NCBI GenBank assembly: GCA_045641325.1 | Contig: JAZUGU010000080.1 | Coordinates: 1-45,391 of the forward strand | DNA: 45,391 nucleotides | Direction: 5' to 3' | From: Candidatus Avispirillum sp. | GTDB lineage: Bacteria; Bacillota; Clostridia; Oscillospirales; CAG-272 | Shown here: positions 1 through 42,311 of the stretch, piece after piece | How the letters are laid out: each line of letters begins with the position of its first letter | How positions within the stretch are numbered: position 1 is the first letter of the stretch | Program-made: the position numbers and the translations under genes | The notes under the pieces: generated by a model | What the model saw: the letters and a program-made list of their open reading frames with translations, nothing else | Told to the model about the DNA's origin: nothing | Databases searched by the model: none

Positions 1-154
1 AGATATAATAAAATGACCGAAACTTTCGTTTCGGTCATTTTTTCATTAGATATTCGGAAAATCTCCCACCATTCGTGACCTAATAGAGTATTTCTTCTTT
101 CCGGTCAGTGGTGAAAAAATCCCTAAGTGAAGCCCCGTAAAAGCACCTCTTTTT
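1..154 (+). repeat. Structured interspersed non-coding element, copy 1 (5' part cut off by window edge)
   Basis: AGATATAATAAAATGACCGAAAC-TTTC-GTTTCGGTCATTTTTTCATTAGATATTCGGAAA...TTTCCGGTCAGTGGTGAAAAAATCCCTAAGTGAAGCCCCG aligns by eye with 35648-35785 and with the reverse complement of 40320-40457. Confidence 0.9.
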
Positions 155-34177: not shown

Positions 34178-34309
34178 TTGGAAACAAATCCTCAAAAACT
34201 ATTGAAATCCGAGAAAATATTATGTATAATGAACTGTCTCGTGTCATTATTATTTTATAACACGTTACTATAATTGTCAAATATTTTTTATATACTGAAA
34301 GGGATAAAA

Positions 34310-35512
34310 ATGAAAGTACTTGTAGTAAACGCAGGCAGCTCTTCGCTGAAATATCAGCTTTTTGATACTGCCGCAAACACCGTTCTCGCAAAAGGTATCT
34401 GTGAGAGAATAAAGATCGACGGCCGCATCGAGCACAAGCTTCCCGACGGCACAAAGATCAAAAAGGACATTCCCATGCCCGATCACGCAGTTGCAACTCA
34501 GATAGTTATCGACTACCTGACCGATCCCGAATTCGGATGCATCAAGGATATGAGCGAGATCGAAGCCGTAGGACACAGAGTTGTCCATGGCGGTACTTAC
34601 TTCACCAAGTCCACACTCGTTACCGATGAAGTTGTTGAAAAGCTCCGCAAGTGCGTTGACTTTGCTCCTCTTCACACCCTTGCTCACATCATGGGTATCG
34701 AGGGCTGCACGAAAGCAATGCCCGGCGTTCCCCAGGTAATTGTTATTGACACCGCATTCCATCAGACCATGCCTCCTCAGGCTTATACCTATGCTATTCC
34801 CTACGAAATGGCAAAGGAATATGAGATCCGTCGCTACGGTGCACACGGTACTTCCCACAGATTCGTTTCTCAGGAAATGTGCAAGATCCTCGGCAAGACC
34901 GAAGGAACAAAGGTAGTTACCTGCCATATCGGTAACGGCTCATCCATTTCCGCTGTTAAAGACGGTAAGTGTATTGACACCTCCATGGGTATGACTCCTC
35001 TTGCAGGCGTTATGATGGGAACACGCTGCGGCGATATTGACCCTGCTGTTGTTACCTATATCATGAAAAAGACCGGAAAGACCCCCGACGAGATGAGCTC
35101 ATTCATGAACAATGAGTGCGGTTTCCTCGGCGTTTCCGGAATTTCTTCCGACAGCCGCGATATCGAAGCTGCTATTCTTAAGGACGATGAGAGAGCTTAT
35201 CTCACCGCTACCACCCTTGCATATCAGGTCAAAAAATATATCGGCTCTTACGCAGCTGCAATGAACGGTCTTGATGCAGTTGTATTTACGGCAGGCATGG
35301 GTGAGAACAACCCCGAGCTCAGAGAGAGAGCCTGCACGGATATGGAGTACCTCGGCATAAAGATCAACAAGGATGTCAATGCAGCAGCACATCATCAGCC
35401 CAACATCGTTGAGCTCTCAACTCCCGATTCAAAGGTAAAGGTTTACCTTATCCCCACGAATGAAGAGCTTATGATAGCAAGAGATACTGAAGATATCGTT
35501 GCAAATCTCTGA
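34310..35512 (+). CDS. ackA: Acetate kinase
   Basis: VNAGSSSLKYQL, GHRVVHGG, DTAFH, HIGNGSS, MGTRCGD, TNEEL. Confidence 0.97.
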   Translation: MKVLVVNAGSSSLKYQLFDTAANTVLAKGICERIKIDGRIEHKLPDGTKIKKDIPMPDHAVATQIVIDYLTDPEFGCIKDMSEIEAVGHRVVHGGTYFTKSTLVTDEVVEKLRKCVDFAPLHTLAHIMGIEGCTKAMPGVPQVIVIDTAFHQTMPPQAYTYAIPYEMAKEYEIRRYGAHGTSHRFVSQEMCKILGKTEGTKVVTCHIGNGSSISAVKDGKCIDTSMGMTPLAGVMMGTRCGDIDPAVVTYIMKKTGKTPDEMSSFMNNECGFLGVSGISSDSRDIEAAILKDDERAYLTATTLAYQVKKYIGSYAAAMNGLDAVVFTAGMGENNPELRERACTDMEYLGIKINKDVNAAAHHQPNIVELSTPDSKVKVYLIPTNEELMIARDTEDIVANL

Positions 35513-35523
35513 TATAAACGTTG

Positions 35524-35800
35524 AAAGTGCCGCACGTTAGGAGCCCTCACATAGGGAGAGAGGCGCCGCTGATTGTTCGTTCTGAATACCGTCGGCGTAA
35601 CAGCCTAAAGGCTGAGGTACGGCAGGTGTTCAGAACGAACAAAGGAAACATATAATTAAATGACCGCAACTTTCGTTTCGGTCATTTTTTCATTAGATAT
35701 TCGGAAATTTTCCCACCGTTCTTGGTTTATTAGTCTTTTTTCTCTTTCCGGTCGGCGGTGAAAAAATCCCTATGTGTGCGCTCCGTTTGTGCGGCACTTT
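35524..35800 (+). repeat. Structured interspersed non-coding element, copy 2 (core 35540-35784)
   Basis: Nested stems: AAAGTGCCGCAC/GTGCGGCACTTT, GGAGC/GCTCC, CACATAGGGA/TCCCTATGTG, CGCCGCTGA/TCGGCGGTG, 18-bp TTGTTCGTTCTGAATACC/GGTGTTCAGAACGAACAA, AAATGACCG/CGGTCATTT. Confidence 0.92.
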
Positions 35801-35816
35801 TTTGTTTAAAACGAGG

Positions 35817-35845
35817 TTGACAAAATGTTGTTTAAGTTATATAAT
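35817..35845 (+). promoter_or_regulatory. Consensus sigma-A promoter of the glycan-precursor operon
   Basis: TTGACA-17 nt-TATAAT. Confidence 0.85.
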
Positions 35846-35877
35846 AGGATAGATTATAATGTGTTGAGGACAAGACT

Positions 35878-36564
35878 ATGAGTGTTGCTCTTGAAGGTAT
35901 TGCACCTGAGGATGTTCTTTCTCTTGAAAAAATCGAATATAAAAAGCCAGCCTCCGCATATTTGTTTTTCAAGCGTTTCTTTGATCTGCTATTCGCAATA
36001 ATTGCCGTTATCATACTATCCCCGCTGATGCTCATCGTTGCAATTGCAATAAAGCTCGAGGACGGAGGCCCGGTTATACATAACAGAATGTGTGTCAAAG
36101 CTGACGGTTCACTTTATAAAATGCACAAGTTCCGCAGTATGAAGACCGATGCGGATTCTCTTGAAAAATGGCTTTCCCCTGACGAGATCAAACAGTTTTA
36201 TGCAGAGGCGAAAATCGAAAACGATCCCCGTATTACAAGATGCGGTAAAATCATAAGAAAGCTCAGTATTGATGAATTGCCCCAGCTGTTCTGCATTATT
36301 GAGGGCACGATGAGCTTTGTAGGTCCCCGTCCCATAACGCCGCAGGAAACCATTCATTACGGGGACAAGCTCTCAATGGTACTTGAGGCAACTCCCGGTC
36401 TTACCGGCAACTGGCAGGTAAACGGAAGAAGCGATTGCTCCTATAAGAGCCGTAAAAGGCAGGGGCTTGAGCTCTACTATGTAGCAAACAGATGTCTTTC
36501 ACTTGACATAAAGATTTTCTTTAAAACCTTCAAGGTCGTTCTATCGGGAGAAGGTGCCAGATAA
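35878..36564 (+). CDS. Initiating sugar (phospho)transferase, bacterial sugar transferase family
   Basis: KRFFD + TM, KFRSM, DPRIT, SIDELPQL, MSFVGPRP, PGLTG.WQV.GRS. Confidence 0.92.
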   Translation: MSVALEGIAPEDVLSLEKIEYKKPASAYLFFKRFFDLLFAIIAVIILSPLMLIVAIAIKLEDGGPVIHNRMCVKADGSLYKMHKFRSMKTDADSLEKWLSPDEIKQFYAEAKIENDPRITRCGKIIRKLSIDELPQLFCIIEGTMSFVGPRPITPQETIHYGDKLSMVLEATPGLTGNWQVNGRSDCSYKSRKRQGLELYYVANRCLSLDIKIFFKTFKVVLSGEGAR

Positions 36565-37307
36565 TGAAAGCATTTCTTCTTGCAGCTGGCTTCGGCACTC
36601 GTCTTCGTCCGCTGACAGATACGGTTCCCAAATGCCTCGTGCCCATATGCGGCGAACCTCTGCTGTCCCATTGGCTGAAGCTTCTCGAATTTCACGGAAT
36701 TACAGACGTTTATATAAACACACATTATCTTGCCGAAAAGGTCAGCGAGTTCATAATTGAACACAACAGAAACTCCTCCGGCATCAAAGCCCATGAACTT
36801 TATGAAAAAGAACTGCTCGGAAGCGGCGGTACCGTTAAAGCAGGCAGAGAAATCGTCGGTGATGATGATTTTCTCATATGTTATGCTGACAATCTGACAA
36901 ATATTGATCTTACGGAGCTCATAAATAAGCACAAGGAACTGAACCCCGTCCTGACAATGGCACTTTTCCGCACCAACAAACCTAAAATGTGCGGTATTGC
37001 AACTCTTGATAACGAAATTATCACAGAGTTCACCGAAAAACCGGAAAACCCCAAATCCGACCTCGCCAACGCAGGCATATATGTCGCGTCCAAGGAAATT
37101 TTCGAATATATGCCGGATGCCGAGGTAATTGACTTCGGTCACGATGTACTTCCCCGCCTATGCGGTAAAATGGCGGGAATTGAAACACATTCTTATCTGA
37201 TCGACATAGGAACACCTGATAATTATAAACTTGCACAGGAGCAGTGGAAAGATCATGATTATTTCAAGAACACCTCTCCGGATCAGTTTTGCGGGCGGCG
37301 GAACTGA
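36564..37307 (+). CDS. Sugar-1-phosphate nucleotidyltransferase, HddC-like
   Basis: LAAGFGTRLRPLT..PK, ANAGIY, DIGTP; context of hddA/gmhA/gmhB. Confidence 0.85.
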   Translation: MKAFLLAAGFGTRLRPLTDTVPKCLVPICGEPLLSHWLKLLEFHGITDVYINTHYLAEKVSEFIIEHNRNSSGIKAHELYEKELLGSGGTVKAGREIVGDDDFLICYADNLTNIDLTELINKHKELNPVLTMALFRTNKPKMCGIATLDNEIITEFTEKPENPKSDLANAGIYVASKEIFEYMPDAEVIDFGHDVLPRLCGKMAGIETHSYLIDIGTPDNYKLAQEQWKDHDYFKNTSPDQFCGRRN

Positions 37308-38226
37308 CATTTGCGATTACTACAAAGAAAGAGGCGGAGCTGTTGTCAGCGCCGCCATTAACAAGTATATCTATATCACCGTCAATAAAAAGTTTGACAA
37401 TGATATAAGGATCAGCTATTCAAAGACCGAAATCGTTCCAAGCGTTATGGATGTTCAACACGAACTCGTTCGTGAATGTCTCAAGCTTGCCGGTATAAGC
37501 GGCGGTATTGAGATCACGTCCATCTCTGATATTCCCTCCGGCACGGGTCTCGGATCTTCAAGCACGTTCACCGTAGGAGTCCTTAATGCTCTGTTCTCAT
37601 ACACGCATCAGAATCTCGGCGCTCGCAGACTGGCTGAGCTTGCATGCAAGGTTGAAATAGATATTCTCGGACATCCGATCGGAAAGCAGGACCAGTATGC
37701 GGCGGCGTTCGGCGGTCTCAACTATTTTGCATTCAACGCAGATGACAGCGTAACACATAAAACCATTGATCTTTCCGATATGGATCTTCGCAAGCTCGAA
37801 AGCAAGCTCATGATGCTCTACACCGGTCGACACCGCAGTGCCGACAACATTCTAAAGGAGCAGAAGCAGAATACGGCTTCAAAGATTGAAACGCTTGATT
37901 ACATGAAATCACTCGCAGACGATCTTTACGAAGAATTAAAATTTAAAGGCGTCTCTTCATCTTTCGGTGAATGTCTCAATAAGGGATGGCAGAAAAAGCG
38001 CGAGCTTGCTAACGCTATTACGAATCCCGAAATCGACTATGCATACCAGAAAGGGATCGAATCAGGTGCCATAGGCGGAAAGCTTCTCGGTGCAGGCGGC
38101 GGCGGTTTCTTACTGTTCTATTGCGATGAGCAGCACCAGGACAAGGTAAGAGAAAGCGTTGGTCTTCCCATTACTGATTTTAAAATTGATTCATACGGAT
38201 CAAGAATCGTTTATTTCGCCTCATGA
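37255..38226 (+). CDS. hddA: GHMP kinase, D-glycero-D-manno-heptose-7-phosphate kinase-like
   Basis: TPLRISFAGGGTD, PSGTGLGSSS, GKQDQYAAAFGG, GKLLGAGGGGF. Confidence 0.85.
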   Translation: MIISRTPLRISFAGGGTDICDYYKERGGAVVSAAINKYIYITVNKKFDNDIRISYSKTEIVPSVMDVQHELVRECLKLAGISGGIEITSISDIPSGTGLGSSSTFTVGVLNALFSYTHQNLGARRLAELACKVEIDILGHPIGKQDQYAAAFGGLNYFAFNADDSVTHKTIDLSDMDLRKLESKLMMLYTGRHRSADNILKEQKQNTASKIETLDYMKSLADDLYEELKFKGVSSSFGECLNKGWQKKRELANAITNPEIDYAYQKGIESGAIGGKLLGAGGGGFLLFYCDEQHQDKVRESVGLPITDFKIDSYGSRIVYFAS

Positions 38227-38750
38227 TAACGGTCTTTCTTGACAGAGACGGTGTTCTCAACGAAAATGCAAGACCGCATGAATATATCTCGAGTCCGGAA
38301 AAATATATACTCCTGCCCCGTGCTGCGGAAGGTGTTGCTCTTCTCAACCGGAACGGTGTACGTGTTCTTCTTGCCACAAACCAGAGAGGGATAGCCCGCG
38401 GTTTGATAACCGTTGCGGACCTTAACGGCATTCACGATTATATGAAAGCTCTGTTGAGCAGATCCGGTGCGCATCTCGACGGCATCTATTACTGTCCTCA
38501 CAACGAGAATGAATGCAATTGCAGAAAGCCGGCTCCCGGAATGCTGGAAAAAGCGGCAAGTGAACATAGTATTGATAAATCACATTGCTGGATGGTCGGA
38601 GATAAAGCATCCGACGTTATGTGCGGAAAGAACTTCGGCGTACGAACGGTCCTCATAGGAGACAATAATGACTGTGATGCTGATTATCTTTGCAATGATC
38701 TTCTTTCAGCCGCGGAACTGATTCTTTCGATAGAAGGAAGGGAAAATTAA
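38223..38750 (+). CDS. gmhB: Heptose-1,7-bisphosphate phosphatase (HAD IIIA)
   Basis: FLDRDGVLN, TNQRGI, CPH...CNCRKP.PGM, MVGD. Confidence 0.9.
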   Translation: MITVFLDRDGVLNENARPHEYISSPEKYILLPRAAEGVALLNRNGVRVLLATNQRGIARGLITVADLNGIHDYMKALLSRSGAHLDGIYYCPHNENECNCRKPAPGMLEKAASEHSIDKSHCWMVGDKASDVMCGKNFGVRTVLIGDNNDCDADYLCNDLLSAAELILSIEGREN

Positions 38751-39722
38751 ATGAAAGTTCTTATAACCGGCGGTGCCGGATACATAGGAAGCCACACCAA
38801 CAGATTTTTCCGTGAAAAAGGGATTGAAACCGTCATTCTCGATGACCTTTCGGATGGCCACGCAGAAGCGGTCCTTGATTCAAAGCTCGTTATCGGAAGT
38901 TTCGGAGACGAAGCACTGCTGGATAAACTGATGACGGAGGAAAATTTTGACGGTGTTATTCACTTTGCCGCATTTGCAAGTGTGCCGGATTCAGTTGTCC
39001 GTCCTTCCAGATACTATCACAACAACGTTTCGAATATGATATGTCTTCTTGACGCATGTGTCAGACATAATATCAAATATTTCGTATTTTCATCTTCTGC
39101 ATCCACGTTCGGTGACCCTGTAACGGTTCCTATGGATGAAAGCCATCCGCAGAAGCCCATCAATGCTTACGGCATGACGAAGCTTATAGGCGAAAAAATC
39201 CTTGCAGACTACGAGCGTGCTTACGGGATCCGCTACTGTGCATTCAGATATTTCTGTGCCGCAGGTGATTCGGAAGACGGAATCATTGGCGAGGCACACA
39301 ATCCCGAAACTCATCTTATACCCGTTATGGTCAAAGCCGCTTTGAACGGAAAGCCGTTCAAGGTGTTCGGAACTGATTATGACACAAGGGACGGAAGCTG
39401 TATCAGAGATTTCATTCACGTAAAAGACCTGGCAGAGGCTCATTGGCTCGGTCTCGATTACATAATGAAAAACGACAGATCCGATCATTTCAATCTCGGA
39501 AGCAATACCGGCTTCACTGTACTTGAAATGATCAAAGCTCTTGAAGAGGTTTCGGGCATCAAAGTACCTTATGAGCTCAGCGAAAGACGTGACGGAGACC
39601 CCGCCGTTCTCGTCGCATCAAACAAAAAGGCAGAAGAAATCCTCGGCTGGAAGCCGAAATACAGCGATATCCACAGAATTCTCAGCGATGCATTAAATTG
39701 GGAGAAAAACAGGAGATATTGA
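38751..39722 (+). CDS. galE: UDP-glucose 4-epimerase
   Basis: TGGAGYIGSH, HFAA...V.DSV, YGMTK, ETHLIP, DGSCIRDFIHV. Confidence 0.88.
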   Translation: MKVLITGGAGYIGSHTNRFFREKGIETVILDDLSDGHAEAVLDSKLVIGSFGDEALLDKLMTEENFDGVIHFAAFASVPDSVVRPSRYYHNNVSNMICLLDACVRHNIKYFVFSSSASTFGDPVTVPMDESHPQKPINAYGMTKLIGEKILADYERAYGIRYCAFRYFCAAGDSEDGIIGEAHNPETHLIPVMVKAALNGKPFKVFGTDYDTRDGSCIRDFIHVKDLAEAHWLGLDYIMKNDRSDHFNLGSNTGFTVLEMIKALEEVSGIKVPYELSERRDGDPAVLVASNKKAEEILGWKPKYSDIHRILSDALNWEKNRRY

Positions 39723-39725
39723 CCT

Positions 39726-40289
39726 ATGGATTACAGAAGCGGAATTAAGAATTATCTTTCCCGTGTTGCAGATATTGTAAATTCCCTTGATACAAACGAA
39801 ATCAACGAAGCCATCAACGCCATCTGCGATGCAGGTGACAGAGGCGCAGTCATATGGGTCATGGGAAACGGCGGCAGTGCCGCAACAGCGTCCCATATGG
39901 TATGTGACTTTTCAAAAGGGGTATATCACTCCCCTGCCGGAAAAAGATATGATTTCAGATGCCTTTCGGACAATACTCCTATTTTTACGGCTATTGCCAA
40001 TGACGTTTCCTATGATGATGTCTTCTATTTACAAATCAAAGACATTATAAAGCCTGAAGATCTGGTCATTGCCATATCAGGAAGCGGCAACTCCGAAAAT
40101 GTGATCAAAGCCTGCAAATACGCAAAAAGCGTCGGGACTCCCGTTGTCGGAATGACCGGATACAATGGAGGAAAGCTCGACCCGCTTGCGGATTTCAAGC
40201 TTCACGTTCCCGTAGATGATATGCAAATCACAGAGGACGTGCACATGATATTTGACCACATGATAATGAAAATTCTCAGCAGCAGATAA
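39726..40289 (+). CDS. gmhA: Sedoheptulose-7-phosphate isomerase (SIS)
   Basis: GNGGSAATASH, TAIAND, ISGSGNSENV, EDVH. Confidence 0.88.
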   Translation: MDYRSGIKNYLSRVADIVNSLDTNEINEAINAICDAGDRGAVIWVMGNGGSAATASHMVCDFSKGVYHSPAGKRYDFRCLSDNTPIFTAIANDVSYDDVFYLQIKDIIKPEDLVIAISGSGNSENVIKACKYAKSVGTPVVGMTGYNGGKLDPLADFKLHVPVDDMQITEDVHMIFDHMIMKILSSR

Positions 40290-40290
40290 A

Positions 40291-40569
40291 AAATCCCGTC
40301 AGACCCGGATATCCGGTTGCGGAGCTTCACTTCGGGATATTTTCACCGCTGACTGGAAAGAGTAACAAGAATAAATATCAAAAAACAGTGGGAACATTCC
40401 CTAATAGCTAATGAAAAAATGACCGAAACTCGTGTTTCGGTCATTTTATTATATCTTTCCTTTGTCCGTTTTGAACGCCTGGCGTACCTATGTACGCCGA
40501 CGCCGCTTCAAAACGAACAATCAGCGGCGCCTCTCTCCCTAAGTGGACGCCCCTTTCTGACGGATATTT
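40291..40569 (-). repeat. Structured interspersed non-coding element, copy 3 (core 40321-40553)
   Basis: Reverse complement reads GGGGCGTCCACTTAGGGAGAGAGGCGCCGCTGATTGTTCGTTTTGAA...TTCAAAACGGACAAAGGAAAGATATAATAAAATGACCGAAAC...TCAGCGGTGAAAATATCCCGAAGTGAAGCTCC, colinear with copy 2; fills the whole gmhA-rqcH intergenic space. Confidence 0.92.
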
Positions 40570-42311
40570 TATTCTTTCATCGATTCAACTTTTGCTTTAT
40601 CCACATTTACCGTCGCAGACCAGTTAGTGTGGTATATAACGTATCCGGGCTTTGATTCCGGAGGCTTTTTAATATTGCGTACCTTTGTGTAATCAATTTC
40701 AGCAGACGTCATATCGCAGGCTTTTGAATAAACAGCTGCTATCATGGCGGCATCCGTAAAATCATCAACAGACGGCTCGGGAAGTCCTACGCAGACCATG
40801 ATCACATGTGAGCCCGGCATGTTTTTGGCATGAAACCACCAGTCGTTTCTATCGGCCTTACGGAAAGTAAGCCAATCGTTTGCAGTGTTGTTTTTACCGC
40901 ACAAAACAGTATAACCGCCGCCGGTCCTGAAAGTGATATATGAGGGTGTTTGCTGCTTTTTATCGATAAACTGTCTGAATTTGGATGCGTAGCCGCTGTG
41001 ATAAAGCTCACTTCGTATCTCAGACATTTCTTTTTCCGTGACGGCGTGAGAAAGAGCCTCGCCTACACTTTCTATATACGAAAGCTCTGATTTTGACAGC
41101 TCAATTTGTTTTGAAAGGTGTTCTTTTGCCGATTTGGATTTTGCATATCTCTTATAATACCGCTGCGCGTTTTGAGCAGGTGTCAGCCTTGAATCAAGAG
41201 GTATGTTCACCTCATCACCCGTGTTATAGTCGACAAGAGCGGCGCCCGTCATGCCCCGTTTCAGACAATAAATGTTTGCTGTGACAAGATCGCCCCAGAG
41301 TCTGTATTTTTCACCTTCTGCGCAATCATCAAGTTCTTTCAGCTGAATAGACAGTTTTTTCTGTATCCTTGCCGTCGAATTGGCTATGATTTTCTGAATA
41401 TCCGATGCTTTCTGACTCAGCTTTTCATCGCGGCTTTTTTCCTCAAAATATACGTCGAGCATCTGTCCGAAAGTATCATATATGACACATTTATAATCTT
41501 TTCCGTACTGCTCAATGGAAAAAAACGAGTATTCGCGCGGTTTTCCGTTTTCGTCAAAAATCACATTGGGTAAACCGTTGTGAGAGGCAATATTATCAAG
41601 CATTGTGAAAAAGCTATCACAGAGAGTCGCAGAACACTCTCTGAGTGTTGCAGATGAATGCCCTCCGCATTTATGAGCAAGCTCCCGCGCCGCAAGAGGA
41701 GATATTCCGGCAAACGCAGATACAATGAATTTCTCGCACAGTCTCTCCGGATCAGCACCGGCGAGTCTGTTAAATGTATCTTTATCAATTGTAAACGGGT
41801 CGAGTTTATTTTGCCTCGGCGGCAATTCATATATCATCCCGGGAAGCATCTGGCGCCGGCTGCTGTCTGTGAAATCGATCTGTCTTAAAATATTAATGAT
41901 TTTTCCGCTGTCATCTGTGAAAACGATATTCGAGTACTTCCCCATCATTTCCACAATTATGTGCATCTTTTTTCTGAATCCGAGCTCATCTGTCGTATCA
42001 AAAACAAGCCTTGCCGCACGTTCAAAGCCAAGCTGCTCCGCACATTCAAATATTGCGCCCTGCAGATGCTTTCTGAACAGCATACAAAGCATGGGGGCCT
42101 TCATGGGATTTTCGGATTTCTGCTCCGTCAAACCTATGCGGGGGCATCTTGAACCGGCGTTTACAAGCAATCGTCTTGAGCCCTCTTTGCCTCTGATAAT
42201 AAAGACGAACTCGTCTCTTGCAGGCTGATATATTTTTTCAACTCTTCCGCCGCCGACGTACTCATTGATCTCATTGATGACAAACGAAAGCATCCCTGCA
42301 TCAAAAGCCAT
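40569..42311 (-). CDS. rqcH: NFACT family protein (RqcH/FbpA)
   Basis: MAFDAG, KIYQP, EMMGKYSN, NAQRYYKRY.K, GKNN..ND, WFHAK.MPGSHV, IDYT. Confidence 0.92.
   Translation of the reverse strand: MAFDAGMLSFVINEINEYVGGGRVEKIYQPARDEFVFIIRGKEGSRRLLVNAGSRCPRIGLTEQKSENPMKAPMLCMLFRKHLQGAIFECAEQLGFERAARLVFDTTDELGFRKKMHIIVEMMGKYSNIVFTDDSGKIINILRQIDFTDSSRRQMLPGMIYELPPRQNKLDPFTIDKDTFNRLAGADPERLCEKFIVSAFAGISPLAARELAHKCGGHSSATLRECSATLCDSFFTMLDNIASHNGLPNVIFDENGKPREYSFFSIEQYGKDYKCVIYDTFGQMLDVYFEEKSRDEKLSQKASDIQKIIANSTARIQKKLSIQLKELDDCAEGEKYRLWGDLVTANIYCLKRGMTGAALVDYNTGDEVNIPLDSRLTPAQNAQRYYKRYAKSKSAKEHLSKQIELSKSELSYIESVGEALSHAVTEKEMSEIRSELYHSGYASKFRQFIDKKQQTPSYITFRTGGGYTVLCGKNNTANDWLTFRKADRNDWWFHAKNMPGSHVIMVCVGLPEPSVDDFTDAAMIAAVYSKACDMTSAEIDYTKVRNIKKPPESKPGYVIYHTNWSATVNVDKAKVESMKE

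What the first reader, a model, noticed from the sequence alone, without database searches (positions are those of the whole stretch)
35512..35806. Element appears embedded in the loop of locus-specific terminator stems
Seen: the conserved core (GGRGC...GCYCC) is closed by an outer stem unrelated between copies. Copy 2 has AAAGTGCCGCAC/GTGCGGCACTTTTTT starting 12 nt after the ackA stop. Copy 3 has AAATATCCGTCAGA/TCTGACGGGATTTTTT abutting the rqcH stop. Copy 1 ends in GCACCTCTTTTT. Each outer 3' arm ends in a T tract, and deleting the core in copy 2 leaves an ordinary intrinsic terminator. No target-site duplication is evident. Inference: either a mobile element that targets terminator hairpin loops as a safe harbour, or a 3'-UTR RNA domain with a freely covarying basal stem. 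Hairpin targeting has precedent (REP-targeting IS elements, group IIC introns next to terminators), but this element has neither group II domain V nor an ORF.
Basis: partly seen in the sequence, partly recalled or inferred. Interest (0 to 1): 0.8.

Follow-up and report, generated by a model that had tools for sequence, protein, structure and literature searches.

The report
Mini transposon inside terminator hairpin loops
A small non-coding jumping-DNA element, present in roughly fifty copies in this uncultured gut bacterium, sits exactly at the tip of the hairpins that end genes, a harmless landing place that it seems to find by shape rather than by sequence.

Summary
The 35512-35806 feature is one copy of a ~236-248-nt non-coding repeat. 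The genome holds 40 complete copies plus contig-end pieces. 24 of 34 G000 copies, and 20 of 23 in a second species (G045), are enclosed by a locus-specific A-tract/stem/T-tract hairpin, against ~13% for mismatched flank pairs.

The ends lie 13 nt outside TAGGGA and TCCCTA, and 53 of 81 copies then have identical 2-nt flanks (20 expected). With one duplicate removed, the flanks rebuild ordinary terminators, mostly with 3-5-nt loops and the duplication at the loop apex.

One orthologous site in G000 is empty, with the same stem and a GGAA loop. Two more have near-identical stems. 16 of 23 sites lie between convergent genes (background 17%). The same 19-nt terminal inverted repeat heads other ~276-nt elements in 16 further gut Clostridia assemblies.

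Best reading: a MITE-type superfamily that integrates at terminator-hairpin tips and carries its own bidirectional terminator. No transposase with matching ends was found. A conserved, covarying plus-strand fold remains unexplained. I rate it a new variant of a known kind.

The parts
35524..35535 (+). Copy 2: 5' arm of the split host terminator (AAAGTGCCGCAC, A tract plus stem)
   Evidence: Read. It pairs with 35789-35800 (repeat finder I5; 12-bp stem).
35537..35538 (+). Copy 2: left copy of the 2-bp target-site duplication (TT)
   Evidence: Fixed-distance rule, (row G000_C80 +: AAAGTGCCGCAC g[TT]t GTGCGGCACTTT).
35539..35785 (+). Copy 2 of the element (247 nt). It runs from 13 nt before TAGGGA (35552) to 13 nt after TCCCTA (35767-35772).
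   Evidence: It was the query that found 61 matches in the own genome.
35539..35557 (+). Left terminal inverted repeat AGGAGCCCTCACATAGGGA
   Evidence: Pairs with 35767-35785 (I5; helix 1). The same motif heads other element families.
35564..35572 (+). Inner inverted repeat / helix P3, 5' strand CGCCGCTGA (partner TCGGCGGTG at 35752-35760)
   Evidence: Helix 2: 98.4% of cells paired, with a conserved G-U at columns 27/243.
35573..35642 (+). Long internal hairpin H1
   Evidence: Self-complementary match. Helices 3-5, with 5 pairs changed on both sides.
35629..35656 (+). Promoter-like TTCAGA-16-TATAAT inside the element, pointing into H2
   Evidence: 10 of 12 matches. The same motif is in copy 3. 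Function not tested.
35657..35690 (+). Internal A-tract/stem/T-tract hairpin H2 (AAATGACCGCAAC-TTTC-GTTTCGGTCATTTTT), a bidirectional terminator-like module
   Evidence: the repeat finder D2. Helix 7. The equivalent hairpin of copy 3 was scored terminator-like.
35767..35785 (+). Right terminal inverted repeat TCCCTATGTGTGCGCTCCG
35786..35787 (+). Copy 2: right copy of the 2-bp target-site duplication (TT)
35789..35803 (+). Copy 2: 3' arm of the split host terminator plus T tract (GTGCGGCAC TTTTTT)
40319..40554 (-). Copy 3 of the element (236 nt), flanked by AA (40555-40556) and AA (40317-40318). It lies between the convergent NFACT/rqcH and SIS-domain genes.
40556..40570 (-). Copy 3: 5' outer arm AAAATATCCGTCAGA, overlapping the rqcH stop codon
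   Evidence: The joined flanks fold at -20.5 kcal/mol.
40288..40318 (-). Copy 3: 3' side, a small extra hairpin CCGGATATCCGG, then the arm TCTGACGGGAT and a T tract
1..138 (+). Copy 1: 3' part of an element cut by the contig start. It ends in GCCCCGT and is followed by AA, then GCACCTC and a T tract (143-154).
   Evidence: the repeat finder D1 (86% identity to copy 2). The partner arm was not found.

Best explanation
The feature is one copy of a non-autonomous DNA transposon of the MITE kind. It is ~236-248 nt long and non-coding. It has ~19-nt terminal inverted repeats (N-GGRGC-NNN-CACW-TAGGGA), extended by a second inverted block (CGCCGCTGA/TCRGCGGTG). It makes a 2-bp target-site duplication.

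Its target is not a sequence but a shape: the apex of the loop of intrinsic, mostly bidirectional, terminator hairpins at gene 3' ends. Insertion splits the hairpin. The A tract and 5' arm stay on the left, and the 3' arm and T tract stay on the right.

The element carries its own central A-tract/stem/T-tract hairpin and folds into a rod that brings the two host arms back together. Gene ends should therefore stay terminated and the insertion should be nearly neutral.

Shown: the copy family, the terminal repeats, the 2-bp duplication, the loop-apex position, the enrichment at convergent gene ends, empty orthologous sites, and the same ends on other element families in related gut Clostridia.

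Inferred: movement by a trans-acting transposase that makes 2-nt staggered cuts at hairpin or cruciform tips (the enzyme was not found), and preservation of termination by the internal hairpin.
For: Copy family:
- 61 matches in the own genome.
- 70 local blastn hits of at least 60 nt.
- 40 complete copies paired by end anchors.

Enclosing hairpins:
- 24 of 34 copies in G000 and 20 of 23 in G045 have a perfect outer stem, against 13% in mismatched controls.
- Joined flanks fold with a median of -16.7 kcal/mol, against -9.6 for mismatched pairs.
- Arms of contig-end pieces pair across contigs.

Target-site duplication and insertion point:
- 53 of 81 copies have identical 2-nt flanks (G000 20/33, G045 14/22, other genomes 19/26). 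The shuffle expectation is 20.3, sd 3.4, and other boundary offsets give 3-17.
- Of 41 rebuilt empty sites, 28 have loops of 3-5 nt, and in 34 the duplication is centred within 1 nt of the loop centre.

Empty orthologous sites:
- G000 C33 reads AAAAAAGGCCTCC-GGAA-GGAGGCTTTTTT where G045 has the same stem split by the element.
- C39 and G045 C1:7944 have near-identical stems with compensated changes.
- The closest species without the element has ordinary terminators after ackA and rqcH.

Genomic setting and distribution:
- 16 of 23 sites with both neighbours called lie between convergent genes, against 16.6% of 1329 adjacent gene pairs (p 2.6e-8).
- The element was not found in 24 same-genus, 16 same-order or 4 closest-AckA genomes.

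Mobility defined by the ends:
- A composite carrying a nested second repeat has itself multiplied.
- A tandem dimer and a ~40-nt form consisting only of the two terminal repeats exist.
- The same terminal repeat heads ~276-nt elements with a different interior in 16 other assemblies. 11 of 26 have perfect outer stems, against 4.5% in controls.
Against: - No autonomous partner was found. PF01797 and PF01548 are absent from G000, and PF00665 and PF01609 from G000 and G045.
- PF13358 hit one of five carrier genomes, but that IS630-like element has unrelated ends.
- PF13586 and PF13359 are absent from five carriers.
- The rve ORFs in G047 lack the terminal repeat.
- Terminal-repeat scans of genome and metagenome contigs gave only short non-coding elements.
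- All of these are draft metagenome bins, which often lose insertion sequences.
- Only 3 of 11 one-sided orthologous comparisons show the same or nearly the same stem. In 6 the other genome has an ordinary terminator with an unrelated stem. A small control suggests ordinary terminators also turn over: 2 of 6 are exactly conserved.
- 28 of 81 copies lack matching 2-nt flanks.
- 10 of 34 G000 copies have non-matching arms. Some of these have the true partner arm on another contig end, so assembly chimeras or recombination are likely.
- The interior keeps a covarying plus-strand fold rich in G-U pairs, which a purely double-stranded cut-and-paste model does not need.
Confidence: 0.75

Rival explanations
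1. The element does move into terminator loops, but not by a classical DDE cut-and-paste reaction. It moves through a folded single-stranded (plus-strand) intermediate. A hairpin-specific enzyme, either an HUH-type or recombinase-type protein or a host protein outside the known transposase families, joins the element's closed rod to the target loop.
For: - The fold is kept across 42 copies: 97.8% of cells paired, and 10 of 59 pairs changed on both sides (0 of 500 shuffles reach this; slid controls give 3-5).
- There are 174 G-U cells against about 54 non-pair cells, so only the plus strand keeps the helices.
- Helices P3, P4 and the terminal-repeat stem span the internal terminator, so a terminated transcript could not form them.
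- No transposase with matching ends was found in up to seven carrier assemblies.
Against: - Terminal inverted repeats plus a fixed 2-bp duplication are the signature of staggered double-strand target cuts.
- No Y1 HUH gene is present in G000.
- Orientation is not tied to proxies of replication direction: gene-strand bias gives 27 against 29, and GC skew gives 21 against 37 on a weak skew.
- The copies share descent, so the covariation counts overstate the number of independent events.
Confidence: 0.15
2. It is a structured non-coding RNA family, a 3'-UTR domain or small RNA gene. The basal stem is part of the RNA and simply covaries freely. The copies are paralogous genes rather than insertions.
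For: - The fold is conserved with compensatory changes.
- The plus strand folds better than the minus strand in 34 of 36 copies; copy 2 with its arms gives -130.8 against -115.3 kcal/mol.
- The element contains a conserved promoter-like motif and a terminator-like hairpin.
Against: - There is a 2-bp duplication flanking the ends.
- There are empty orthologous terminators with the same stem.
- The outer stems rebuild normal terminators with 3-5-nt loops.
- There is no orientation preference at tandem gene sites (2 against 3).
- It is absent from sister species.
- Other repeats are nested inside it, and the composite is itself amplified.
- There is no Rfam match.
- The internal terminator would stop a transcript before the 3' half that the basal stem needs.
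Confidence: 0.05
3. The outer stems are not pre-existing terminators. They are either produced by the insertion process as an inverted duplication of the target, or carried along with the element.
For: - In 6 of 11 one-sided orthologous comparisons the other genome has a terminator with an unrelated stem.
- The stem GCACCCC/GGGGTGC recurs at several copies.
Against: - The empty allele at G000 C33 has the same stem with a 4-nt loop, and two further empty alleles have near-identical stems.
- Most stems differ between copies.
- AAAGCACCCC and GGGGTGCTTT occur 11 and 10 times in the genome, so this is simply a common terminator stem.
- Ordinary terminators also diverge between these species (small sample).
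Confidence: 0.03

Closest known systems
Bacterial MITEs (for example Correia/NEMIS, RUP, ERIC, Chunjie, QMITE). I saw passages of the reviews PMC10969869 and PMC3184786.
   Same: Small, non-coding and multi-copy, with terminal inverted repeats, a short target-site duplication, a very stable predicted fold, an intergenic location, and copies nested in one another.
   Different: The target is the apex of sequence-diverse intrinsic-terminator loops, not an AT-rich or TA site. The 2-bp duplication is AA, TT, TA, TC, GA or TG rather than a fixed TA. The element carries its own bidirectional terminator-like hairpin. No partner insertion sequence with the same ends was found.
REP-targeting insertion sequences (IS1397, ISKpn1, IS621, ISPsy8, ISPpu9/10, ISRm22). 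I saw passages of Tobes and Pareja 2006, PMC1525189.
   Same: They insert inside extragenic palindromic hairpins that often lie between convergent genes. The hairpin is split by the insertion, and short duplications occur (3 bp for ISPsy8).
   Different: Those elements are autonomous and recognise one conserved REP sequence at a fixed point. Here the stems and loops differ from site to site, so recognition has to be structural or extremely relaxed.
IS30 family, including IS1630 of Mycoplasma fermentans
   Same: As I recall, the family makes 2-3-bp duplications and prefers palindromic hot spots, and IS1630 uses terminator-like inverted repeats as targets.
   Different: As I recall, IS1630 duplicates the whole inverted repeat instead of splitting it at the loop. 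No rve-domain gene is present in G000 or G045, and the rve ORFs in another carrier lack the terminal repeat. Membership is therefore not supported.
Group IIC introns
   Same: They use intrinsic-terminator hairpins as landmarks for a harmless insertion.
   Different: They are retroelements with a ribozyme and a reverse-transcriptase ORF, and they insert after the hairpin. Here there is no ORF and no Rfam intron match. There are terminal inverted repeats and a 2-bp duplication, and insertion is inside the loop.
IS200/IS605 relatives and REP/RAYT systems (passages of PMC1525189 seen; PMC3333891 appeared only in the search listing)
   Same: Hairpin-centred, non-coding, high-copy repeats in extragenic space.
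   Different: Those have no terminal inverted repeats and no duplication, and they depend on a Y1 HUH transposase. PF01797 was not found in G000.
SPRITE, the pneumococcal Rho-independent terminator-like element (mentioned in passages seen)
   Same: A dispersed repeat that contains a terminator-like hairpin.
   Different: In the passages I saw, SPRITE is not described as lying inside host terminator loops. It shares no sequence with this element.

Membership tests
MITE (non-autonomous TIR transposon) | Short (under about 500 bp) and non-coding | tested here: met
   Copies are 220-248 nt, and composites are 356-369 nt. There is no ORF of 80 aa or more inside copies 2 or 3.
MITE (non-autonomous TIR transposon) | Terminal inverted repeats | tested here: met
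   The two ~19-nt ends pair (I5; helix 1, 95.5% of cells paired). The same ends occur on other element families.
MITE (non-autonomous TIR transposon) | Target-site duplication of fixed length | tested here: met
   53 of 81 copies have identical 2-nt flanks, against 20.3 (sd 3.4) expected. Other boundary offsets give 3-17.
MITE (non-autonomous TIR transposon) | Many dispersed copies, with presence/absence differences at orthologous sites | tested here: met
   40 complete copies. There is 1 exact and 2 near-exact empty orthologous hairpins, and 4 sites are filled in both species. No same-species polymorphism was seen.
MITE (non-autonomous TIR transposon) | A cognate autonomous element with the same terminal repeats encoding the transposase | tested here: not met
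   None was found. The assemblies are draft bins, so absence is not shown.
Group II (class C) intron | Ribozyme domains (domain V) and usually a reverse-transcriptase ORF; insertion downstream of a terminator hairpin | tested here: not met
   There are no Rfam hits at the gathering threshold and none relevant at E up to 10. There is no ORF. The position is inside the loop.
IS200/IS605-derived element or REP/RAYT | No terminal inverted repeats and no duplication; a Y1 HUH transposase in the genome | tested here: not met
   Terminal repeats and a 2-bp duplication are present. PF01797 gave no match in G000, which is 96% complete.
IS110 family / bridge-RNA element | A DEDD transposase, no terminal inverted repeats, and an RNA-programmed sequence-specific target | tested here: not met
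   PF01548 gave no match in G000. The targets differ in sequence, and terminal repeats are present. What looks like an IS110-type C-terminal fragment sits on G045 contig C34, unrelated to the element (named by eye, not scanned).
IS30 family | An rve-domain transposase flanked by the element's terminal repeats; a 2-3-bp duplication | tested here: inconclusive
   The 2-bp duplication is met. PF00665 is absent from G000 and G045. It is present in 1 of 5 other carriers, but without the terminal repeat within 4 mismatches.
IS630/Tc1-mariner-derived MITE | A strict TA target duplication; a DDE_3 transposase with matching terminal repeats | tested here: not met
   Only 4 of the 53 duplications are TA. 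The single DDE_3 element (G045 C34) has other ends.
Known structured RNA family (Rfam) | A match to a curated covariance model | tested here: not met
   There were 0 matches at the gathering threshold in the window. The best sub-threshold match covers only the internal hairpin (Yfr10, 30.7 against 43 bits). Nothing lay on elements in 12 related loci.

The most novel reading that the evidence does not exclude
The superfamily is moved by an enzyme that reads DNA shape, namely the tip of a hairpin or cruciform, instead of sequence. It may act on a folded single-stranded plus-strand form of the element, and it may belong to no known transposase family, since none with matching ends turned up in up to seven carrier assemblies. 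That would make it a natural, sequence-independent 'safe-harbour' integrator aimed at transcription terminators.
Probability: 0.2. Interest if true: 0.85.

Novelty: new variant of a known kind. Interest (0 to 1): 0.6.

Why it matters
Transposons that pick a harmless address are rare and useful. This one appears to recognise a structure that every bacterial genome has in hundreds of copies, the loop of an intrinsic terminator, and it brings a replacement terminator with it.

If the enzyme can be found, it would show how a transposase recognises a hairpin tip without a sequence cue, and it would offer a way to insert DNA at gene ends without breaking genes.

For genome annotation of uncultured gut Clostridia, the finding explains a class of ~240-280-nt highly structured intergenic repeats. 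These repeats break short-read assemblies: many contigs here end inside copies. They could also be mistaken for non-coding RNA genes or for unusually long terminators.

The locus-specific arms can also be used to link contigs across the repeat.

Tried and rejected
- Rfam: nothing at the gathering threshold in the window or on elements in 12 related loci. At E up to 10 there were only chance-level hits; the best, Yfr10, covers just the internal hairpin.
- Public runs: no RNA holder was listed. I laid the contigs of four DNA or unknown-kind runs on 34300-42300. No contig bridged an empty site at either copy, cover of the flanks was thin, and the pieces were only 150-330 nt, so this says nothing on polymorphism. 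Loose ends at 35536 and 35538 in two runs continue into other A-tract/GC-rich flanks.
- Transposase hunts: see the Against line in Best explanation.
- Apparent long elements with partner ends 2.1-3.3 kb away were false partner matches enclosing ordinary genes.
- Four loci with one terminal repeat and no partner are a ~60-nt short form followed by a terminator.
- Viral contigs 20-mer scan: 0 hits. blastn against plasmids and phages: no match. The metagenome scan for the terminal repeat gave 19 loci with no coding element.
- A flank search in G045 through 'relatives' found no ortholog, so I fetched the whole of G045 instead.
- Orientation against replication proxies: GC skew 21 against 37 (p 0.036, but the median skew is only 0.018), and gene-strand bias 27 against 29. 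I treated this as no bias.
- The mean energies printed were corrupted by outliers, so I use only the 34-of-36 count and the copy-2 values.
- Baseline terminator turnover rests on only 6 hairpins, some of them inside genes.
- Literature searches found no description of a MITE aimed at terminator loops, and no paper containing the terminal-repeat sequence. The library lacks most subscription journals, and supplements were closed.
- The EFAR, IS1630, IS30 and RAG hairpin-tip work is recalled only.
Full report
WHAT IS THERE

The region 35512-35806 holds one copy of a repeat that occurs three times in the window.
- Copy 1 is at 1-138 and is cut by the contig start.
- Copy 2 is at 35539-35785 on the plus strand.
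- Copy 3 is at 40319-40554 on the minus strand.

The gene ending at 35512 is an acetate kinase, and the minus-strand gene ending at 40569 is an NFACT/RqcH protein. Copy 2 lies between ackA and a sugar-transferase gene on the same strand. Copy 3 lies between the convergent rqcH and a SIS-domain gene. Copy 1 abuts the 3' end of a minus-strand flavoprotein gene.

The window is contig C80 of a 1.9-Mb draft genome of 172 contigs, 96% complete. Its AckA is closest to proteins from uncultured gut Clostridia, some of them titled Candidatus Avispirillum.

COPY NUMBER AND DISTRIBUTION

In the own genome:
- The element gave 61 matches, with only 40 of 93 candidates scored.
- A local blastn gave 87 alignments, 70 of them at least 60 nt long.
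- End anchors paired 40 complete copies. The remaining real pieces lie at contig ends.
- A profile search gave 65 hits of at least 60 bits.
- Copies are 75.6-97% identical to copy 2.

In other genomes:
- The element was not found in 24 other species of the genus, 16 other families of the order, or the four genomes with the closest AckA proteins.
- An exact 20-mer from its interior occurs in only one other species genome of the 185,579-species collection. That genome is G045, and the scan returned 17 loci from it. G045 holds at least 24 distinct complete copies, including one head-to-tail dimer.
- There were no matches in viral contigs, plasmids or phages.

THE ENCLOSING STEMS

A perfect Watson-Crick stem of at least 6 bp, starting within 7 nt of each element end, joins the two flanks at these rates:
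- G000: 24 of 34 copies, against 13.0% of 1122 mismatched flank pairs.
- G045: 20 of 23 copies, against 12.6% of 506 mismatched flank pairs.

The joined 28-nt flanks of 33 copies fold with a median of -16.7 kcal/mol, against -9.6 for mismatched pairs. 16 of the 33 lie below the control's fifth percentile.

The arms are an A tract plus a GC-rich 5' arm on the left, and the complementary arm plus a T tract on the right. Their sequence differs from site to site.

The 10 G000 copies without matching arms still have arm-like flanks. For several of them, and for pieces at contig ends, the complementary arm sits at another contig end. Part of the misses are therefore assembly chimeras or recombinants.

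Two subfamilies differ by a 1-nt deletion near the 3' tip, and this hid the boundary. Once I measured the ends from the conserved inner motifs, the element became 13 nt + TAGGGA ... TCCCTA + 13 nt. With these ends, 53 of 81 copies have identical dinucleotides on both sides.
- By genome: G000 20 of 33, G045 14 of 22, other genomes 19 of 26.
- By dinucleotide: AA 24, TT 18, TA 4, TC 3, GA 3, TG 1.
- Shuffling the partners gives 20.3 (sd 3.4), with a maximum of 33 in 2000 shuffles.
- Shifting either boundary by one base gives 3-17 matches.

Removing one dinucleotide and joining the flanks rebuilds hairpins in 41 copies with a stem of at least 5 bp.
- The loops are 4 nt in 16, 3 nt in 6 and 5 nt in 6.
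- The duplicated pair is centred within 1 nt of the loop centre in 34 of the 41.

Copy 2 rebuilds AAAGTGCCGCAC-G[TT]T-GTGCGGCACTTT.

EMPTY SITES

I rebuilt G045 from its 85 contigs and compared the two genomes in both directions.
- Of 39 G000 copies: 24 had no colinear ortholog, 8 had flanks that were too short, 4 were filled in both genomes, and 3 lacked a full copy in G045.
- Of 23 G045 copies: 16 had no colinear ortholog, 2 were filled in both, and 5 lacked the element in G000.

Adding one more diverged G045 copy and the two window loci in the closest element-free species G041 gives 11 one-sided comparisons.
- One is a clean empty site. G000 C33 reads AAAAAAGGCCTCC-GGAA-GGAGGCTTTTTT, where G045 has GGCCTCC-C[GA]-element-[GA]A-GGAGGC.
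- Two have near-identical stems with compensated changes: G000 C39 against G045 C62, and G045 C1:7944 against G000 C103.
- Six have an ordinary terminator with an unrelated stem at the same intergenic position, including those after ackA and rqcH in G041.
- One filled copy has lost its arms while the empty allele keeps a terminator.
- One site holds a ~35-nt remnant of the element.

A small control suggests that ordinary terminators also diverge between these species. Of 6 hairpins, 2 are exactly conserved and 4 are conserved within one mismatch per arm.

GENOMIC SETTING

Of 23 sites with both neighbours called, 16 lie between convergent genes, 2 and 3 lie in the two tandem orientations, and 2 look divergent. 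Convergent pairs make up 16.6% of 1329 adjacent gene pairs by the same rough gene calls, which gives a binomial p of 2.6e-8.

I found no orientation preference relative to neighbouring genes or to the local gene-strand bias (27 against 29). GC skew gave 21 against 37 on a very weak skew.

ANATOMY

An alignment of 42 copies (23 from G000, 19 from G045) gives the following consensus:
- a terminal-repeat stem;
- a second inverted block, P3;
- a long hairpin, H1;
- a short long-range helix, P4;
- a central hairpin, H2, flanked by an A tract and a T tract, which is terminator-like in both directions. The equivalent hairpin of copy 3 was scored as terminator-like.

On this structure 97.8% of cells pair, and 10 of 59 pairs show changes on both sides. 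No shuffle out of 500 reaches these values, and slid controls give 3-5 such pairs. There are 174 G-U cells and about 54 non-pair cells, so the complementary strand would carry C-A mismatches at those places. The plus strand folds better in 34 of 36 copies. The copies share descent, so these counts overstate the number of independent events.

A promoter-like TTCAGA-16-TATAAT motif inside the element points into H2 in both complete window copies. It is untested.

A WIDER SUPERFAMILY

The terminal motif GGRGCGCTCACWTAGGGA was found at 82 loci in the species collection. Besides chance hits, it heads complete non-coding elements of 161-278 nt, mostly ~276 nt. Their interior is different but they have a similar rod-like fold. 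They occur in 16 further assemblies titled Acutalibacteraceae, Clostridia or similar.
- 11 of these 26 copies have perfect outer stems, against 4.5% in controls.
- 19 of 26 have the 2-bp duplication.
- None overlaps an Rfam family.

WHAT MOVES IT

This is not resolved.
- Y1 and IS110 transposase domains are absent from G000.
- rve and DDE_Tnp_1 are absent from G000 and G045.
- DDE_Tnp_1_2 and DDE_Tnp_4 are absent from five carriers.
- The one DDE_3 (IS630-like) element, in G045, has unrelated ends.
- Four rve ORFs in another carrier lack the terminal repeat.
- Scans with the terminal repeat gave no coding element.

All of these genomes are draft bins, and bins often lose insertion sequences.

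HOW IT MOST LIKELY WORKS

Terminal inverted repeats at a fixed distance from inner motifs, together with a 2-bp duplication, point to a transposase that binds both ends and makes 2-nt staggered cuts in the target. The targets share no sequence and vary in stem length, but the cut always lies at the loop apex. The enzyme therefore has to recognise the distorted tip of an extruded hairpin or cruciform, or a hairpin in transiently single-stranded DNA.

Mobility depends on the ends. A composite carrying a nested second repeat has itself multiplied. A tandem dimer also exists, as does a ~40-nt form that consists only of the two terminal repeats (L192).

The central bidirectional terminator-like hairpin and the rod-like fold would keep both neighbouring genes terminated. 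That would explain why copies survive at gene ends. This last step is inference.

The conserved plus-strand fold, which spans the internal terminator, is not explained by this model. It keeps a single-strand intermediate in play.

At one site filled in both species, the two elements belong to different subfamilies although the near flanks are almost identical. Gene conversion between copies, or repeated use of one loop, must therefore also occur.

COMPARISON WITH WHAT IS KNOWN

By its tested features this is a MITE, and only the partner element is missing.
- The nearest precedent for the target is the set of insertion sequences that insert in REP hairpins, often between convergent genes (passages of PMC1525189). 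Those recognise one conserved sequence.
- Reviews of bacterial MITEs and small repeats mention terminator-like repeats such as SPRITE, but no element aimed at terminator loops (passages of PMC10969869 and PMC3184786).
- My searches found no such description, and no paper containing the end sequence.
- Group IIC introns, IS200/IS605 and REP/RAYT, IS110 and IS630 each fail a defining feature that I tested here.
- IS30-like behaviour (2-3-bp duplication, palindromic hot spots; IS1630 and terminator-like repeats) is recalled from memory and is not supported by any gene I found.

VERDICT

I rate it a new variant of a known kind, namely a MITE superfamily with structure-directed insertion at terminator loop tips. 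The mobilising enzyme is unknown, and a conserved single-strand fold is unexplained.

Noticed in passing
L014:1346-1712 (G000 contig C161:4608-4974); also G000 C23:17456-17829: Long variants of the element (356-369 nt) carry a nested second repeat of ~118 nt with its own hairpin. That repeat also occurs alone at about ten other places (for example C114:732-817 and C5:29318-29397). The composite has itself multiplied to at least 8 places, several at contig ends.
   Followed up: partly
G000 contig ends, for example C59:34-150, C104:66-180, C41:8665-8780: A third repeat family sits at or near the ends of at least 25 contigs. It has the form CGACCGTGGCAATCTCT...AGAGATTGCCACG, with inverted ends, and it probably also breaks the assembly.
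   Followed up: no
L119:4309-4370 and L128:2843-3100 (G045); G000 C64:5184-5245: Short CTTAAAAC-type tandem units, and in some cases a longer GC-rich repeat, lie directly upstream of the terminator arm at several element sites in both species.
   Followed up: no
window 35629-35656 (+) and 40448-40475 (-): A conserved promoter-like TTCAGA/TTCAAA-16-TATAAT motif lies inside the element. It is placed so that a transcript would start at the internal terminator hairpin.
   Followed up: no
L245 (G045 contig C34, 2069 nt): An IS630-like element sits inside what looks like the C-terminal part of an IS110-type transposase gene. The IS630-like element has an HTH ORF, a DDE_3 ORF in another frame, and ends TAGCAATCC... 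flanked by TA. It is unrelated to the element studied.
   Followed up: partly
L149:907-1378 (G045 contig C15): Two copies of the element lie head to tail. By the 13-nt rule, a single AA separates them, and AA also flanks the pair on the outside.
   Followed up: partly
G000 C64:4936-5183 against L119:4072-4308: The same terminator loop is filled in both species, but by different subfamily variants. Identity is 81.6% inside the element, while the near flanks are almost identical. This suggests gene conversion between copies or repeated insertion into one loop.
   Followed up: partly
L192 (an Acutalibacteraceae MAG), minus strand around position 1181 of the reversed locus: A ~40-nt form consists only of the two terminal repeats joined by GGAATT, followed by GTTAGCGGCG. 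It looks like an internally deleted copy.
   Followed up: no
L193, L210, L231, L240, L380, L386, L388: A ~60-nt short form has the same 5' end (GGRGCGCTCACTTAGGGAT...TTGAGTGACGTCCTC) and is followed by a separate terminator hairpin. It occurs in Lachnospiraceae, Ruminococcus and Murimonas records and in gut metagenome contigs.
   Followed up: no
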